A stretch of DNA of 29,735 nucleotides. Source: Candidatus Micrarchaeota archaeon (GTDB lineage Archaea > Micrarchaeota > Micrarchaeia > Burarchaeales > JAKAKT01). Positions 4,817-16,242 of this stretch are shown here, in pieces. The notes beneath the pieces are model-generated. The model was not told the DNA's origin. It ran no database searches and saw only the letters and a program-made list of their open reading frames with translations. The stretch is taken from NCBI GenBank assembly GCA_026396425.1, contig JAPLWU010000068.1, forward strand, positions 1 to 29,735, read 5' to 3'. Every line of letters begins with the position of its first letter. Position 1 is the first letter of the stretch. Both the position numbers and the translations under genes were made by a program.

Positions 4817-6091
4817 CTACATCTGCTTCTTCGTGATTTCCAGAATGACGCCAGCCGCCACAGTCTGGCCCATGTCCCTCACCGCGAACCTCCCGAGCTG
4901 CGGGAATTCCGAGAACTTCTCGGCCACTATGGCTTTGAGCGGCCTTATCTTCATGATTGCCACGTCGCCCGTCTTGACAAAGTCGGGGTTCTTCTGCTGC
5001 GTCTGGCCGGTCTTGGGGTCCTTCTTCTCGAGAATCTCCTCGATCCTGCAGGCCACCTGGGTAGTGTGTATGTGGAATACCGGCGTGTAGCCCTTGGCGA
5101 TTGCGGTCGGGTGCTCGAGCACAACGACCTGAGCCGTGAAGTCCTGCACAACAGTTGGCGGGTTCGAGGCGGTCCCAACGACCTCGCCTCTCCTCACGTC
5201 CTTCTTGTCGACGCCCTTCACGTTGAAGCCGACGTTATCGCCAGGCCCTGCCTGCGTGAGGGGCTGGTGGTGCATCTCGATGCTTTTCACCTCGCCCTTC
5301 GCTCCCGATGGCATGAAGACGACGTTGTCGCCGACCTTCATAATCCCGGTTTCAATCCTTCCAACCGGCACCGTTCCGTGTCCGGTGATTGTAAAAACGT
5401 CCTGTATGGGCATCCTGAGCGGCTTGTCAATCGGCTTCGGAGGCACCTTGAACATGTCGAGCACCTCAACAAGGCACGGGCCCGTGTACCACGGGGTCTT
5501 GTCCGGTGTCTTCTTCGAGACGTTCGCGCCGTCGTATGCCGAAGTGGGCACGAAGTGTATGTCGGCGACCTTGTAGCCGATGTTCTTGAGCAGCGTCGTG
5601 AGCTGCGCCTTCAAATCGTCGTATTTCACGCGGTCGTACTTGACCTCGTCCATCTTGTTGATTGCAATGGCTATCTGCTGTATGCCGAGCACCTTCGCGA
5701 GGAAGGCGTGCTCCTTTGTCTGGGGCTGGATGCCGTCCTTGCACGACACGACGATCACTGCGGCATCGGCCTGGCTCGCCCCGGTAATCATGTTCTTGAT
5801 GAAGTCCCTGTGACCCGGCGCGTCGATGATGGTGAAGTAGTACTTCGGGCTCTGGAAGTCCCTGTGCGCAACGTCAATGGTGACCCCCCTCTCCCTCTCC
5901 TCCTTCAACTCGTCCATGACGAAGGCGAACTCGAAAGTCGGCTTGCCGACCTTTTCCGCCTCCTCCTTCAGCTTCCTGAGCTGCTGCTCGCTGATTGCCC
6001 CTGTCTCGTACAGGATTCTCCCGACCATGGTGCTCTTACCGTGGTCGACGTGACCGATGAAGACCAGATTCATATGTTCTTTTGCAGCCAT
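4817..6091 (-). CDS. tuf: Translation elongation factor aEF-1alpha
   Basis: [40 protein letters not shown]. Shine-Dalgarno GGAGGTG at 6097-6103 supports ATG 6091. Confidence 0.99.
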
Positions 6092-6141
6092 AAGCACACC
6101 TCCACTATCGTTACCACATATGTTCAAGATGCACCCGCAGA

Positions 6142-6149
6142 ATTATAAA
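6142..6149 (-). promoter_or_regulatory. TATA box upstream of tuf
   Basis: TTTATAAT on the minus strand ~50 nt upstream of the tuf start. Confidence 0.5.
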
Positions 6150-6384
6150 CCATTCTTCCATTCGCGGAACCTTAAACAGGCACATCTATTTGCCTCAGCA
6201 TTCTTTTAAACCTATCGTCAATATGCGAGGTGGAAAAACCGAACACGAGATGAAAAAATAAAACAATTGGGAAAAATAAACTCGAGTTAAAAAAATAAAA
6301 AAAACAAAACTCGAACTTTCGTCTCGAATCGCGCGTTTTTTCGGGATTTTCGCCTCGAACTGCGCAGTTTTCTCGGTTCATAAC

Positions 6385-6660
6385 CTACCATCTTATCCCG
6401 AATTCCTTGAATTCGCCCGTCGCATTCCCCCACGTCTCCTCAATCCGTTGGACATTCGCGGCAGGCGAGCCCACCGAGCACCACATGAGGAGAGTCTGCA
6501 ATTTCTCCCTCTCGCCCTCGGCCATTATCTCCACGGTCCCCTCGGGCGCGTTCCTCACCCAGCCGACCAATCCGAGCGAGCGGGCTTTCTCCATGGCGTG
6601 CGCCCTGAAGAAAACGCCCTGAACCCGGCCATGAACAACGATGCGAAGGCGCTCTGCCAT
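6385..6660 (-). CDS. acyP: Acylphosphatase
   Basis: Signature VHGRVQGVFFR and GWVRN..EGTVE. Start at ATG 6660. Confidence 0.95.
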   Translation of the reverse strand: MAERLRIVVHGRVQGVFFRAHAMEKARSLGLVGWVRNAPEGTVEIMAEGEREKLQTLLMWCSVGSPAANVQRIEETWGNATGEFKEFGIRW

Positions 6661-13471: not shown

Positions 13472-13924
13472 TCAATCCACTTTGACAAATTCGGTTTTCA
13501 GTTGCCGCAGCGAACTCAGAGACTTCGTCTTTACAATGCCTTTTTTTGACAGGGCTTTTTTGACGAATTCGTAATACTCCTCGATGTCTTTAGTCCTGAC
13601 TTTCAGTAACATCTCCCAGTCCCCGGTGATTATGTCGATGCTCTCTATCTGCGGGAATCTGACAAGCTCGCGGCCAACCCTTTCGGGATTGCCGTATTCG
13701 TCAGGCGAGAGGCTGATGAGCACATAAGTGCAGAACCCTTCGCCTATTTTTTTGTAATCGAAAACGGCCTTGTAGGCCTTGGTTAAGCCCTCGATTTCCA
13801 TGCGTTTTATGTTGTAGTGTATCGTGGTGGACGGCTCTTGAAGCTCACGCGCAATACGCGCTATCCGCGGAGTGCAGTATCCATTCTTGAAAAGCTCTAT
13901 GAGCCTCCTGCGTATATCCTTCAT
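13472..13924 (-). CDS. Lrp/AsnC family transcriptional regulator
   Basis: N-terminal HTH (IARIARELQEPSTTIHYNIKRMEIEGL) and C-terminal RAM domain with ITGDWEMLLKV. Confidence 0.93.
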   Translation of the reverse strand: MKDIRRRLIELFKNGYCTPRIARIARELQEPSTTIHYNIKRMEIEGLTKAYKAVFDYKKIGEGFCTYVLISLSPDEYGNPERVGRELVRFPQIESIDIITGDWEMLLKVRTKDIEEYYEFVKKALSKKGIVKTKSLSSLRQLKTEFVKVD

Positions 13925-13926
13925 GA

Positions 13927-13941
13927 TTGAATATTATTCAA
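13927..13941. promoter_or_regulatory. Putative Lrp operator (perfect 15-bp palindrome TTGAAT-TAT-ATTCAA)
   Basis: 6-bp arms with a 3-nt AT spacer, 3 nt upstream of the Lrp start codon. This geometry matches archaeal Lrp-family sites. Confidence 0.6.
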
Positions 13942-14018
13942 GAAATATATAAATATTTGCATATTTTTCGTATTTTATTCAGGACATTATATATCCGCCG
14001 ACGCGCGCAATACTTCCC

Positions 14019-15914
14019 ATGCCAAGTCAAGCGATAATGCAAAAGGTACTGAGGGGGTTTCCTCCCCACATGCGGGCCGAAGGGCTGATAGACGAGCGGC
14101 GCAACTCGCCGACGTTCCTCTCGGTTCACATGCGCCCAGTATGCAACTTCCGCTGCCAGAAATGCTTCATGGGCGATATGCGGGACATACGGACCGGGAA
14201 TAGGCCCCTTGACTTCAGGGAAGTTGAAAAAATAGCAAAAAACGGCCGCGCAGCCGGCGTACGGGTGTTTGGCATCACCGGAGCCGGAGAGCCTCTTGTC
14301 GACAGACTGACTCCGGACGCGGTATCAATCGCTAGCGACATGGGGTTTATCACGCATCTGGCCACCAATGCGGCGCTCCTTGACGAACGAAAGCTGAAGT
14401 TTCTCAGGGACAAGGACGTTACTCTCGTTGTCAGCCTCGACACAACGGACCCAAAGGAGTTTGCGCGAAAATCCGGTACGGATACGCGCACTTTCAGGCG
14501 CGTTGTCCGGAACCTCCGCCTTGCGCAAGAGGTTTTCGCCGGAACAAGCGAGGTAAAGGAGGTCGATGGAAAAAGAGTCCAGGTTTTCCGCCTCGCCGTC
14601 CACTCAACCGCAAGCGGCGAAAAGACTGACGAAGTCGAGAGGATCAGGGAACTCATCGACGATAGGACAACGCTTTTCAGCACTTCTCCGATAGCAACTG
14701 TAAAATCGGCGAAGGCCAATGCCCTGGGCATCGGACAGGAGAGGACCACGACGCTGAGCGAACAGCACATTGTCGTTACGGCCCACCCGGCGACTGGCAA
14801 GCAGGTTTGCGGCTTCTTCCTGTTCGGGATCGACATTAACTTCGATGGAGAACTCCTCCTTGACGCCCATGCAATCGATTCGAGGAACCTGATTTCAAAC
14901 ATCCGGGATTTCAATTTCGATGTGGGAAGGGCGTTTTCAGAATTGTCGAAAATCAAGGACGGGTTCGTCGCGCGGTTCCTCGAGGGATTTTGCCCGGTTC
15001 GCACACCGAAATTAGATAACTGGCTTGCGAGCCAAAAGCGGGATAAACTGAACAGGGAAATCGCCGGGCACATAAAAAACGGCCAGAGCCTTGTCAAGTT
15101 TGCATACCTCGGCCAGGGCGCGGAGAGGTTCTTGAAAATAACCGAAAGCCCGCAATACCCCAGTGCGGGGGCCGAGAGGGGGATCCTAGCCGCAAACGAG
15201 CGGGATATCAGAGGTTTCATGGGCGAAAATAGGGCCGTAGTGCTCGGTGCAGGGGACAGAACAAAGCTTCAGCACGTGCTAGGGCGCAATACCTCCGCGG
15301 TCTTTGTCGATATAAGCAGGAAGATGCTTGAGGTTTCCAAGGCCGTGGTCGATTCTCCCGAGCTTATGGAAGCGGATTTCGAGCGGATAGACCCTGCCAA
15401 CTTCGGGCCGAACTGCACGTTCGTGATACTCGGGAACACGCTTGGAAACATCGACGACATGGGCGGCTTTCTTAAGCGAATCGCCACGGTGCCGAACGCG
15501 CGGGTAGTGGTCGGGATGGAACTTGTACCGGATTGCAACCCGTCGTCCATAGCCCGCGTCATGGACGAATACAACAACGAGGACGGCTTTCAGTTTGTCT
15601 TTACCCCGCTCGAACGCTTTGGCGTGAAGCGAAGCGACGGCGAGATCACCGTTCGTTTCAACCAAGAAAAAATGCGGATTGAGGAATTCTTCGAGTTCAG
15701 AAATGACGAGGCACGCGGAAAATTCGCCAAAGAGATGGGCCTGGACGCGGATAAGGTACAAAAAATACCGCTTTCAATCTCATCGAAATTGGGTGAACGG
15801 CAGTTCTTGGAATTGATGGGCGCAAGCGGTTTTGTCGTGGAGAAATCGTTCCGGCAGGGCACGAACTTCGTTTTCCTGCTAAGCGCTGATGCTGCGAGGA
15901 ACACGAAAAAATGA
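14019..15914 (+). CDS. Fusion: radical SAM domain plus EgtD-like (Methyltransf_33-type) SAM methyltransferase
   Basis: CNFRCQKC (14142-14165), GAGEPL, ATNA, VSLD. C-terminal half has KFAYLGQGAERFLKITESPQY..AE..IL, VLGAG...K, VDIS, LGNTLGN, VVGMEL, EYN, RIE, SISSK, collinear with EgtD-family motifs. Confidence 0.85.
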   Translation: MPSQAIMQKVLRGFPPHMRAEGLIDERRNSPTFLSVHMRPVCNFRCQKCFMGDMRDIRTGNRPLDFREVEKIAKNGRAAGVRVFGITGAGEPLVDRLTPDAVSIASDMGFITHLATNAALLDERKLKFLRDKDVTLVVSLDTTDPKEFARKSGTDTRTFRRVVRNLRLAQEVFAGTSEVKEVDGKRVQVFRLAVHSTASGEKTDEVERIRELIDDRTTLFSTSPIATVKSAKANALGIGQERTTTLSEQHIVVTAHPATGKQVCGFFLFGIDINFDGELLLDAHAIDSRNLISNIRDFNFDVGRAFSELSKIKDGFVARFLEGFCPVRTPKLDNWLASQKRDKLNREIAGHIKNGQSLVKFAYLGQGAERFLKITESPQYPSAGAERGILAANERDIRGFMGENRAVVLGAGDRTKLQHVLGRNTSAVFVDISRKMLEVSKAVVDSPELMEADFERIDPANFGPNCTFVILGNTLGNIDDMGGFLKRIATVPNARVVVGMELVPDCNPSSIARVMDEYNNEDGFQFVFTPLERFGVKRSDGEITVRFNQEKMRIEEFFEFRNDEARGKFAKEMGLDADKVQKIPLSISSKLGERQFLELMGASGFVVEKSFRQGTNFVFLLSADAARNTKK

Positions 15915-15925
15915 AGAGAACAATG

Positions 15926-15949
15926 CCGGTCGACTGCGGCCGGGTTTTT
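15926..15949 (+). terminator. Hairpin plus T-tract after the radical SAM-methyltransferase gene
   Basis: CCGGTCG-ACTG-CGGCCGG (7 bp with one G-T) followed by GTTTTT. Confidence 0.45.
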
Positions 15950-16062
15950 CGCATTTGCCTACTCCGCGCAGGAATGGCGCTTCCTGAAGGTCAACTACAT
16001 TTATAAAACTTGCAAGTTATAAAGGCAGTCCGTAATTTGAGTTCGTAATTTGCGGTGATTTG

Positions 16063-16242
16063 ATGATTTGCGAGAGATGCGGCAACAGCACACATTCGCT
16101 CGAGCCATGCACCTACTGCGGAAAGAACGTGTGCCGCCTGTGCGAGAATTCCTCTAAGAGAATCGACAAGATTAAGCGCTATTTCATCTGCAAGTCCTGC
16201 TGGTCGGTCAGCGAGAGCAAAAAGGCGTTCAAAAGGGTTTGA
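16063..16242 (+). CDS. Small 8-Cys zinc-finger protein (59 aa)
   Basis: Four CxxC pairs (CERC, CTYC, CRLC, CKSC). GGTGA Shine-Dalgarno at 16054-16058 and TATA-like TTTATAAA upstream. Confidence 0.8.
   Translation: MICERCGNSTHSLEPCTYCGKNVCRLCENSSKRIDKIKRYFICKSCWSVSESKKAFKRV

What the first reader, a model, noticed from the sequence alone, without database searches (positions are those of the whole stretch)
13472..15914. Candidate novel biosynthetic module: Lrp-controlled radical SAM / EgtD-like methyltransferase fusion
Seen: one 631-aa protein joins a radical-SAM core (CxxxCxxC, GAGEP, TNA, SLD) and a truncated twitch/SPASM-like segment (CGFFLFGIDINFDGELLLD...GFCPVR, only two Cys) to a full EgtD-type methyltransferase. 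Established: EgtD N-trimethylates histidine for ergothioneine, and family members such as EasF and aromatic-amino-acid betaine synthases methylate other amino acids. The carboxylate/amine-binding positions look retained (TLGN Asn, EYN Tyr, final SxK). The imidazole-binding Glu of the TExSxK motif (Glu282 in M. smegmatis EgtD) is replaced (LSISSK), and IEM became IEE. I know of no characterised fusion of these two families. Inference: a one-gene pathway that N-methylates a non-His amino acid or amine and radically modifies it (e.g. C-S, C-C or decarboxylation chemistry), under an amino-acid-sensing Lrp regulator. An anaerobic ergothioneine-like route is a less likely alternative.
Basis: partly seen in the sequence, partly recalled or inferred. 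Interest (0 to 1): 0.85.

Follow-up and report, generated by a model that had tools for sequence, protein, structure and literature searches.

The report
Radical-SAM/EgtD-like methyltransferase fusion with Lrp
A tiny freshwater-sediment archaeon carries a real but rare single gene that joins a radical-SAM enzyme to an amino-acid N-methyltransferase, beside its own Lrp regulator; it most likely makes an unknown modified amino acid, and no enzyme of this build has been studied.

Summary
Its N-terminal half is a radical-SAM domain with a twitch-type extension. Its C-terminal half is a Methyltransf_33 (EgtD-fold) domain. An Lrp/AsnC gene (13472-13924, -) lies divergently upstream.

- **Not a chimera.** The same two halves are fused in frame, or are adjacent genes, in all 13 independent related loci. 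These come from DPANN archaea and a few low-GC bacteria.
- **Methyltransferase half.** Every EgtD residue that holds the alpha-amino and alpha-carboxylate groups of a free amino acid is kept. The two positions that set histidine specificity are changed (Met252 to Glu, Glu282 to Ser).
- **Radical-SAM half.** It belongs to an unnamed family of about 70 clusters. Members carry either three auxiliary cysteines or, as here, Cys-Asp/His-Cys.
- **Regulator.** The Lrp is a dedicated orthologue, 54-58% identical in two other lineages against at most 30% for paralogues in its own genome. It shares an identical 15-nt palindrome next to its start codon. Other lineages lack it.
- **Other contexts.** Transporters, MetK and amino-acid enzymes point to a small-molecule amino-acid product.

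The chemistry is untested and the substrate is unknown. The module is rare: about 3 of 360 related genomes. This scan had already flagged the family on other DNA, as a frameshifted version (e1-2518834). It is a new variant of known kinds, of moderate to high interest.

The parts
13472..13924 (-). Lrp/AsnC-family transcription regulator (150 aa, P0002). It is a dedicated orthologue that travels with the module in three lineages.
   Evidence: Pfam AsnC_trans_reg, E 8.6e-13. It is 58% and 54% identical to the Lrp genes lying divergently upstream of the split rSAM/MT pairs in L008 and L010. The best paralogue in its own genome is 30% identical.
13925..14018 (.). A 94-bp divergent intergenic control region with AT-rich TATA-like stretches. 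One of these lies about 25 nt before the ATG at 14019.
   Evidence: Sequence read directly. The region is alignable with the L008 intergenic region. No sigma-70-type promoter was found, as expected for an archaeon.
13927..13941 (.). Perfect 15-nt palindrome TTGAATATTATTCAA, 2 nt from the lrp start codon. Candidate Lrp operator.
   Evidence: It occurs once in the window. The identical 15-mer sits at the same place relative to the lrp start in L008 (4801-4815), with a second TTGAA-N5-TTCAA copy at 4842-4856.
14019..15914 (+). Fusion gene: radical-SAM/twitch domain joined to an EgtD-like methyltransferase domain (631 aa, P0001).
   Evidence: Orthologues of 36-63% identity occur in 13 other lineages.
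14142..14165 (+). CxxxCxxC motif (C42, C46, C49) that binds the radical-SAM [4Fe-4S] cluster.
   Evidence: Present in every one of the 68 family representatives that covers the site: 64 of 64, with 4 N-terminally truncated.
14802..15002 (+). Twitch-type extension (residues 262-328): a beta-hairpin plus a helix. The candidate auxiliary-site ligands are C264, D282/H284 and C325.
   Evidence: DSSP on the model. C264 and C325 are invariant. Position 282 is Cys in 40 family members and Asp in 25, and it covaries with position 284 (Tyr with Cys, His with Asp).
15012..15077 (+). Linker helix between the two domains (residues 332-353).
   Evidence: Helix H332-353 in the model. Gene splits fall here, and so does a 2 x 17-aa repeat insertion in P0007.
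15078..15911 (+). Methyltransf_33 (EgtD-fold) SAM-dependent amino-acid N-methyltransferase domain (residues 354-631).
   Evidence: Pfam E 2.3e-18. A family profile against EgtD PDB chains gives E 2e-20. Foldseek gives E 1e-15.
15926..15953 (+). Terminator-like GC hairpin and T-run directly after the stop codon. The gene appears to be monocistronic.
   Evidence: This is a consensus match only, and termination signals in archaea are less well defined.

Best explanation
This is a self-contained, Lrp-regulated, two-activity enzyme that tailors a free L-amino acid, or a close amino-acid-like metabolite, into a small-molecule product.

**Shown.** The C-terminal domain has the EgtD fold. It keeps the SAM-binding motifs and every EgtD residue that clamps the alpha-amino and alpha-carboxylate groups. 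The two side-chain specificity positions differ from EgtD. The N-terminal domain is a complete radical-SAM core with a twitch extension, whose auxiliary site is Cys-Asp/His-Cys. The two activities are always fused or adjacent. In this lineage a dedicated Lrp orthologue with a conserved palindrome lies divergently upstream.

**Inferred.**
1. The methyltransferase domain N-alpha-methylates, possibly up to the betaine, an amino acid that is not bound the way EgtD binds histidine.
2. The radical-SAM domain uses a 5'-deoxyadenosyl radical to abstract a hydrogen from the same molecule. This drives a second modification, such as C-C or C-heteroatom bond formation, dehydrogenation, decarboxylation or epimerisation. 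The order of the two steps is unknown.
3. The Lrp senses an amino acid or the product and controls both its own gene and the enzyme gene through the TTGAA-N5-TTCAA site.
4. The product is used or exported as an accessory metabolite (osmolyte, redox buffer or antimetabolite) and is not part of core metabolism.
For: - **Domains and fold:**
- **Backbone-binding residues kept.** The equivalents of EgtD Tyr39, Phe47, Tyr56, Gly161, Thr163, Asn166, Tyr206, Ser284 and the following Lys are Y363, F371, Y380, G472, T474, N477, Y518, S588 and K590. These are conserved in 44-48 of 48 family representatives. Their roles in binding the histidine carboxylate and amine come from PMC8593015.
- **Numbering check.** The two engineered positions of PDB 4pip (M252V, E282A, the tryptophan-binding variant) align exactly with E556 and S586.
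- **Obligate pairing.** The radical-SAM and methyltransferase halves are fused or adjacent in 14 of 14 loci. Fused and split forms are interleaved on the tree.
- **No other conserved neighbour** except Lrp.
- **Lrp orthology and shared palindrome:**
- **Small-molecule, amino-acid contexts of the module and of radical-SAM relatives:**
  - EamA and MFS transporters flank it in L027, and MetK lies directly upstream in L028.
  - Two Orn/DAP/Arg decarboxylases lie upstream in L025.
  - A PALP enzyme overlaps a relative in L033.
  - An amino-acid ABC transporter follows a relative in L012.
- **Accessory role.** The module is rare and patchy: 2 of 60 relatives and 1 of 300 phylum genomes.
Against: - No substrate or product is known and nothing was assayed.
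- The side-chain pocket positions vary even among orthologues. Position 252 is E/H/H/E/A/A, 282 is S/S/S/S/G/G and 213 is Q/R/Q/A/E/A. No single substrate can be read from the sequence.
- The best structural matches of the radical-SAM half include peptide maturases (SkfB, SuiB, EpeE) and nucleotide or sugar enzymes (MoaA, viperin, BlsE, DesII). None of them is an enzyme of free amino acids.
- Lrp is missing next to most orthologues.
- I could not read the model coordinates, so the distance and orientation between the two active sites are unknown.
Confidence: 0.5

Rival explanations
1. Oxygen-independent ergothioneine-like route. The EgtD-like domain makes hercynine, or a related betaine. The radical-SAM domain then installs sulfur, or another heteroatom, on the side chain, using its auxiliary site as donor or anchor.
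For: The closest characterised relative of the methyltransferase domain is EgtD. A Glu at the Met252 position (E556) could take over the imidazole contact of Glu282. A radical-SAM enzyme suits anoxic sediment. HisRS lies directly downstream in one clade (L017/L025/L029).
Against: - Both His-specificity positions differ from EgtD. The NCBIfam EgtD equivalog scores 42.5 bits against a cut-off of 290.9.
- The auxiliary site has only two Cys, whereas sulfur-inserting radical-SAM enzymes known to me carry a full sacrificial cluster (my recollection).
- No rhodanese or EanB-like gene and no histidinol dehydrogenase was found in the 87%-complete genome.
- The pocket residues vary among orthologues.
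Confidence: 0.07
2. Peptide or protein maturase. The twitch radical-SAM domain cross-links or epimerises a ribosomal peptide, and the methyltransferase caps its N-terminus.
For: The top structural matches of the radical-SAM half include the RiPP maturases SkfB, SuiB, CteB-like enzymes and EpeE. Several NCBIfam peptide-maturase models give weak hits.
Against: - Only 41 residues precede the CxxxCxxC motif, so there is no room for a peptide-recognition (RRE) domain.
- No conserved small ORF accompanies the module. In the window the upstream spacer is 94 bp and a terminator-like hairpin follows the gene.
- The methyltransferase keeps all three residues that bind a free alpha-carboxylate (Tyr56, Tyr206, Ser284 equivalents). 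A peptide N-terminus lacks that group.
Confidence: 0.1
3. Nucleotide- or sugar-nucleotide-modifying enzyme of the viperin, MoaA, BlsE or DesII type. It would serve, for example, as an antiviral or cofactor function, and the methyltransferase would act on that product.
For: The best NCBIfam and PADLOC hits of the radical-SAM core are MoaA and prokaryotic viperin. Viperin gives the highest target TM-scores among radical-SAM hits, about 0.65. The distribution is rare and patchy. A distant relative sits in a cluster with an adenosine-deaminase-family gene, Fic and DUF4365.
Against: - All these hits cover only the generic N-terminal half of the core and lie far below the curated cut-offs. MoaA scores 53 bits against 284. 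Viperin scores 41 bits against 180. The pVip profile is matched only at positions 3-116 of 257.
- The fused partner is built to bind an amino acid.
- The neighbours are Lrp, an amino-acid transporter, a PALP enzyme and decarboxylases.
Confidence: 0.08
4. SAM-only pathway. The radical-SAM domain transfers or rearranges the 3-amino-3-carboxypropyl part of SAM onto a simple acceptor. The EgtD-like domain then methylates the alpha-amine of that new amino acid. The logic is that of Dph2/Dph5, BtaA/BtaB or ArsL/ArsM.
For: - The module needs no other biosynthetic gene in genomes that lack most amino-acid synthesis.
- MetK is adjacent in L028.
- The methyltransferase binds an alpha-amino-acid head group but has an altered, variable side-chain pocket.
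- The precedents are from my own recollection and were not tested here.
Against: No sequence or structural similarity to Dph2, BtaA or ArsL was seen in any search. The genome has its own Dph2 and a Dph5-type TP_methylase, so this module is not a replacement for diphthamide synthesis.
Confidence: 0.08

Closest known systems
EgtD, L-histidine N-alpha-methyltransferase of ergothioneine biosynthesis (M. smegmatis / M. tuberculosis; PDB 4pim, 4pio, 4uy6, 7scf); Pfam Methyltransf_33
   Same: The fold is the same (Foldseek E 1e-15). The SAM motifs are kept. So are all residues that bind the amino-acid alpha-amine and alpha-carboxylate: the equivalents of Tyr39, Tyr56, Gly161, Thr163, Asn166, Tyr206 and Ser284.
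   Different: - Sequence identity is only 17-21%.
- The domain is shorter, about 280 aa against 321.
- Met252 is replaced by Glu and Glu282 by Ser. These are the two positions whose mutation retargets EgtD to tryptophan in PDB 4pip.
- It scores far below the EgtD and EasF NCBIfam cut-offs.
- It is fused to a radical-SAM domain. No EgtB, EgtE or EanB partner was found.
Twitch/SPASM-group radical-SAM enzymes (MoaA, SkfB, SuiB, EpeE, BlsE, DesII, viperin)
   Same: It has the CxxxCxxC motif, a GGE-like GAGEP motif and a partial (beta/alpha)6 barrel. A C-terminal beta-hairpin plus helix follows the barrel.
   Different: - No family model reaches its cut-off, and no SPASM Pfam hit was found.
- The auxiliary site is Cys264 / Asp282-His284 / Cys325, not 3-4 Cys. 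Sister members carry Cys at position 282.
- It belongs to an unnamed family of about 70 clusters at 50% identity.
EanA/EanB anaerobic ergothioneine pathway (Chlorobium limicola), from my own recollection
   Same: An EgtD-type methyltransferase is paired with a single second enzyme that works without oxygen.
   Different: The partner here is a radical-SAM enzyme and not a rhodanese-like sulfur transferase. No rhodanese domain was found in this genome.
Archaeal Lrp/AsnC regulators (LysM, LrpA, Ss-LrpB type)
   Same: It has an HTH plus an AsnC ligand-binding (RAM) domain and is 150 aa long. Its gene lies divergently from the target gene, and a 15-bp palindromic site overlaps its own promoter.
   Different: All named NCBIfam equivalogs score far below their cut-offs (34 bits or less against 180 or more). 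The effector is unknown.

Membership tests
Radical SAM superfamily (PF04055) | CxxxCxxC motif for the [4Fe-4S] cluster, and a Pfam score above the gathering cut-off | tested here: met
   C42/C46/C49 are present. The score is 55.1 bits against a cut-off of 29.5. The motif is invariant across the family.
Radical SAM superfamily (PF04055) | Partial TIM-barrel fold with SAM-binding motifs (GGE-like) | tested here: met
   The model shows six beta/alpha repeats, and GAGEP lies at residues 88-92. Foldseek matches to radical-SAM structures give E 1e-10 to 1e-8.
Twitch/SPASM subgroup of radical SAM enzymes | C-terminal beta-hairpin plus helix after the barrel | tested here: met
   Strands 262-264, 270-273 and 278-280 are followed by helix 302-319.
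Twitch/SPASM subgroup of radical SAM enzymes | At least three Cys ligands for an auxiliary Fe-S cluster | tested here: not met
   Only C264 and C325 are present. Position 282 is Asp, whereas it is Cys in 40 of 68 relatives. Whether Asp282 or His284 binds a metal cannot be tested with these tools.
Methyltransf_33 (PF10017) | Pfam score above cut-off, and EgtD-type fold | tested here: met
   The score is 66.7 bits against a cut-off of 23. EgtD chains are the top 15 Foldseek hits.
EgtD (L-histidine N-alpha-methyltransferase, TIGR03438 equivalog) | Residues that bind the amino-acid backbone (Tyr56, Asn166, Tyr206, Ser284) | tested here: met
   The equivalents are Y380, N477, Y518 and S588.
EgtD (L-histidine N-alpha-methyltransferase, TIGR03438 equivalog) | Histidine-specific pocket residues (Glu282, Met252) and the equivalog score cut-off | tested here: not met
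   The equivalents are S586 and E556. The score is 42.5 bits against a cut-off of 290.9. The protein is therefore a Methyltransf_33 member but not an EgtD orthologue.
Prokaryotic viperin (pVip) / MoaA | Full-length match to the family model above its cut-off | tested here: not met
   viperin_w_prok scores 41 bits against 180. moaA scores 53 bits against 284. The pVip profile is matched only at positions 3-116 of 257.
Lrp/AsnC regulators | AsnC_trans_reg (RAM) domain with an N-terminal HTH | tested here: met
   PF01037 scores 48.4 bits against a cut-off of 25. The HTH region gives only weak hits, to HTH_27 and Terminase_5.

The most novel reading that the evidence does not exclude
The module is a self-sufficient synthase of a new class of radically modified amino-acid betaine. 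One example would be an oxygen-independent analogue of ergothioneine-type protective metabolites. Another would be an amino acid built from the aminocarboxypropyl part of SAM itself. Its radical-SAM half would then be the first radical-SAM enzyme shown to act on an N-methylated free amino acid, using an unusual Cys-Asp/His-Cys auxiliary site. The cassette would also be one that has moved between ultra-small archaea and anaerobic bacteria.
Probability: 0.15. Interest if true: 0.8.

Novelty: new variant of a known kind. Interest (0 to 1): 0.58.

Why it matters
If the inference holds, one polypeptide uses SAM in both of its chemistries, as a methyl donor and as a radical source, on a single amino-acid substrate. 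That would define a new radical-SAM reaction and a new specificity class inside the EgtD family. The Glu252/Ser282 signature is shared by about 30 of 48 related clusters, and none of them is characterised.

The module occurs in genome-reduced DPANN archaea that make few metabolites of their own. A dedicated small-molecule product there could bear on how these cells cope with stress or interact with hosts. The system is compact (one gene, one regulator, one operator), so it is easy to test in a heterologous host.

Tried and rejected
- **Assembly chimera: rejected.** In-frame fusions occur in 7 independent assemblies. A Logan contig covers 14725-16167 across the junction. That run may be the sample the window was assembled from, so it is not fully independent.
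- **Replacement for diphthamide methylase Dph5: rejected.** The genome has Dph2 and a TP_methylase, and the module is far too rare.
- **Viperin or defence system: rejected as membership.** Only generic half-profile hits were found.
- **Other conserved partner genes.** All-against-all comparison of the ORFs of 14 loci found only Lrp.
- **PdxS/PdxT and aminoacyl-tRNA synthetase neighbours.** They recur but differ from locus to locus, so I treat them as unproven.
- **Long antisense ORF 14126-15220(-), 364 aa.** It has no Pfam evidence. Its apparent 'conservation' is explained by the sense-strand gene.
- **Plasmid collection:** no match.
- **ESM Atlas:** only generic radical-SAM and Methyltransf_33 clusters.
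- **Literature:** five searches found no description.
- **TTGAA-N5-TTCAA upstream of the bacterial L026/L027/L031 copies.** These three loci are one 27%-GC lineage, so I do not count the match as independent support.
Full report
**1. The observation**

The window holds a 631-aa ORF at 14019-15914(+) and a divergent 150-aa ORF at 13472-13924(-). In the large protein, Pfam finds Radical_SAM at residues 40-172 (E 1.3e-14) and Methyltransf_33 at residues 360-614 (E 2.3e-18). Both are above their curated cut-offs. The small protein is an Lrp/AsnC regulator.

The public gene call starts at Met18 (614 aa). The motif LRGFPPH at residues 11-17 is conserved in homologues, so the start is 14019 or 14037.

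The surroundings are ordinary archaeal housekeeping genes. They include PdxS/PdxT, a MiaB-family methylthiotransferase, a class-I aminoacyl-tRNA synthetase and the RFC small subunit. The genome is 1.19 Mb, 87% complete and DPANN-like. The nearest named relatives are Micrarchaeota MAGs, and the source is freshwater sediment.

**2. The fusion is real**

Word-based and exhaustive protein searches, together with scans of genome and metagenome contigs, gave 13 further independent loci. A tblastn comparison of the two halves separately shows three arrangements.

| Arrangement | Loci |
|---|---|
| One frame, fused | window, L002, L005, L007, L014, L015, L025 |
| Two adjacent genes, broken at the linker | L008, L009, L010, L027, L028 |
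| +1 frameshift inside the radical-SAM half | L017/L029, L030 |

- The two halves are never found apart in this subfamily.
- On a tree of the concatenated halves, fused and split forms are interleaved. Fusion or fission therefore happened more than once.
- A Logan contig of the source run covers 14725-16167, across the domain junction.

**3. Structure**

AlphaFold2, run with a 136-sequence alignment, gives pLDDT 94.8 and pTM 0.91. The model has these parts:
- a (beta/alpha)6 radical-SAM core;
- a twitch-like beta-hairpin plus helix (residues 262-319);
- a linker helix (332-353);
- a Rossmann-type methyltransferase domain.

In Foldseek against the PDB, the top 15 hits are EgtD structures (E about 1e-15, target TM 0.66-0.73). 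They are followed by SkfB, MoaA, SuiB, BlsE, viperin, EpeE and DesII for the N-terminal half (E 1e-10 to 1e-8). I could not read the coordinates.

**4. The methyltransferase half**

A profile of 25 family members aligns with EgtD chains at E 2e-20. The alignment checks itself. The two substitutions of the engineered variant 4pip (M252V, E282A) fall on E556 and S586 of this protein.

The residue roles described for M. tuberculosis EgtD are as follows (PMC8593015). Tyr56, Tyr206 and Ser284 bind the carboxylate. Asn166 binds the alpha-amine. Tyr39 and Phe47 line the site.

| EgtD residue | Equivalent in P0001 |
|---|---|
| Tyr39 | Y363 |
| Phe47 | F371 |
| Tyr56 | Y380 |
| Gly161 | G472 |
| Thr163 | T474 |
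| Asn166 | N477 |
| Tyr206 | Y518 |
| Ser284 | S588 |
| following Lys | K590 |

These equivalents are conserved in 44-48 of 48 representatives. The domain is therefore built to hold a free alpha-amino acid head group.

The histidine-specific positions are not kept. Position 282 is Ser or Gly, and position 252 is Glu, His or Ala. The pair Glu252/Ser282 (RIEE ... LLSxS/TxK) is the commonest signature in the wider clade, including stand-alone proteins of about 310 aa. None of the 48 representatives has the EgtD pair.

The protein scores far below the EgtD and EasF equivalog cut-offs. It is a Methyltransf_33 member but not an EgtD orthologue.

**5. The radical-SAM half**

The exhaustive search found 71 representatives at E <= 1e-30, counting radical-SAM and methyltransferase matches together. 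About 70 radical-SAM clusters of some 330-350 aa match the whole N-terminal half. None carries a name, and no NCBIfam model reaches its cut-off.

A dedicated alignment shows C264 and C325 invariant. Position 282 is Cys in 40 members and Asp in 25. It covaries with position 284: 'C-x-Y' against 'D-A-H-A'. All methyltransferase-linked members are of the Asp/His type.

I infer an auxiliary metal site that exchanged a Cys ligand for Asp or His. I do not read it as a dead twitch domain. This is untested.

**6. Neighbourhood**

Only Lrp recurs next to the module. The window's Lrp is 58% identical to the divergent Lrp of L008 and 54% identical to that of L010. The enzymes of those loci are only 40-45% identical to this one. 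The best paralogue of this Lrp in its own genome is 30% identical.

The 94-bp spacer carries the perfect palindrome TTGAATATTATTCAA two bases from the lrp start. The identical 15-mer lies at the same place in L008, which has a second TTGAA-N5-TTCAA copy nearer the enzyme gene.

The two closest genomes with the fusion (G003, G017) have no orthologue of this Lrp; their best matches are 31-32% identical. The regulator belongs to the module in only some lineages.

Other contexts fit small-molecule amino-acid chemistry.

| Locus | Context |
|---|---|
| L027 (bacterial) | EamA and MFS transporters flank the pair |
| L028 (bacterial) | MetK directly upstream |
| L025 | two Orn/DAP/Arg decarboxylase genes upstream |
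| L033 | a Cys-type radical-SAM relative overlaps a PALP gene |
| L012 | another relative precedes an amino-acid ABC transporter |

**7. Distribution**

The full module was found in 2 of 60 close relatives and in 1 of 300 genomes sampled from the phylum. It is an accessory trait and not a core trait.

The own genome has Dph2 and a Dph5-type methylase. No rhodanese and no histidinol dehydrogenase were found, with the caveat that the genome is 87% complete. It also holds a second, much more divergent Methyltransf_33-like gene that is not linked to a radical-SAM gene.

**8. Interpretation**

The best-supported reading has two coupled steps on one free amino acid or amino-acid-like metabolite. One is N-alpha-methylation. 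The other is a modification initiated by a 5'-deoxyadenosyl radical. In this lineage the module is under a dedicated Lrp. I give this reading a confidence of about 0.5.

The rivals are listed with their evidence in the Rival explanations section:
- an ergothioneine-like thio-betaine route;
- a peptide maturase;
- a nucleotide-modifying enzyme of the viperin or MoaA type;
- a SAM-only aminocarboxypropyl route.

The peptide reading is weakened in three ways. There is no recognition domain, since only 41 residues precede the cluster motif. There is no conserved small ORF. The carboxylate-binding residues are intact.

**9. Novelty**

No paper in the held library links a radical-SAM enzyme with an EgtD-type methyltransferase. 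This scan had already noted the family on other DNA, as a frameshifted gene (e1-2518834). I saw that frameshift in L017, L029 and L030. I also saw that their close relative L025 reads through in frame.

Both domains belong to known superfamilies, so this is a new variant of known kinds and not a new kind. Its value lies in a compact, testable system with an unknown reaction.

Noticed in passing
L017:4025-4135, L029:8580-8690, L030:8580-8700 versus L025:8580-8680: Three related loci need a +1 shift inside the radical-SAM half, from one extra base at TTTCA[T]CC / TTTCT[C]CC. It falls just before the conserved S-P-I-A motif. The closely related L025 lacks the extra base and reads in frame. The in-frame relative is new information. 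It does not settle whether this is programmed frameshifting or decay.
   Followed up: partly
window:9894-11361; L014:7060-9423: The PLP-synthase genes pdxS and pdxT lie 3 kb upstream of the fusion in the window and directly downstream of it in L014, which belongs to a different clade of the enzyme tree. This could be residual synteny or a hint of PLP involvement.
   Followed up: no
window:16762-19620; L005:12025-13413; L007:8948-9862; L017:387-3080 and 5206-6543: An aminoacyl-tRNA synthetase, or a synthetase-like gene, lies within about two genes of the module in four lineages. They are a class I Ile/Leu/Val type, CysRS, a 304-aa class II core, and AlaRS plus HisRS. The enzyme differs each time. 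By a rough post-hoc estimate this is more often than expected.
   Followed up: no
G000:C16:14861-15796 (L022:1249-2184, minus strand): The genome holds a second, very divergent Methyltransf_33-like ORF (311 aa, 39 bits, core only). It sits next to an HTH_10 regulator and a ParE-like ORF and is not linked to a radical-SAM gene.
   Followed up: partly
L005:8900-9000 (P0007 linker): The inter-domain linker of this orthologue carries a tandem duplication of a 17-residue unit (GEKKSMAQDTPKLGAGI x 2). This shows the linker tolerates insertions.
   Followed up: no
L011:5001-9075: A distant Asp-type relative of the radical-SAM half heads a cluster with two radical-SAM/SPASM genes and an adenosine-deaminase-family gene. 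Fic and DUF4365 genes lie nearby. It is an uncharacterised cluster and looks related to nucleosides or to defence.
   Followed up: no
L027:2337-13792 and L028:75-7303: The split module also occurs in low-GC bacterial contigs. In L027 it sits beside an agr-type quorum-sensing locus (AgrB, a GHKL kinase, a LytTR regulator) and a Mutator-family transposase. In L028 it sits beside a two-component system, bacterial-type MetK and DUF3786. This suggests transfer between bacteria and DPANN archaea.
   Followed up: partly
window:12181-13488: The MiaB-family (UPF0004 + Radical_SAM + TRAM) ORF on the minus strand overlaps the 3' end of the lrp gene by 17 nt, if its TTG start is real. The two genes may therefore be co-transcribed. 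This arrangement is not conserved in L008 or L010.
   Followed up: no
L015 (CAZKIP010000003.1): One fused orthologue lies on a 140-kb contig of a MAG labelled 'uncultured Methanosarcinales archaeon', at 33% GC. This is either horizontal transfer into a euryarchaeon or a binning error.
   Followed up: no
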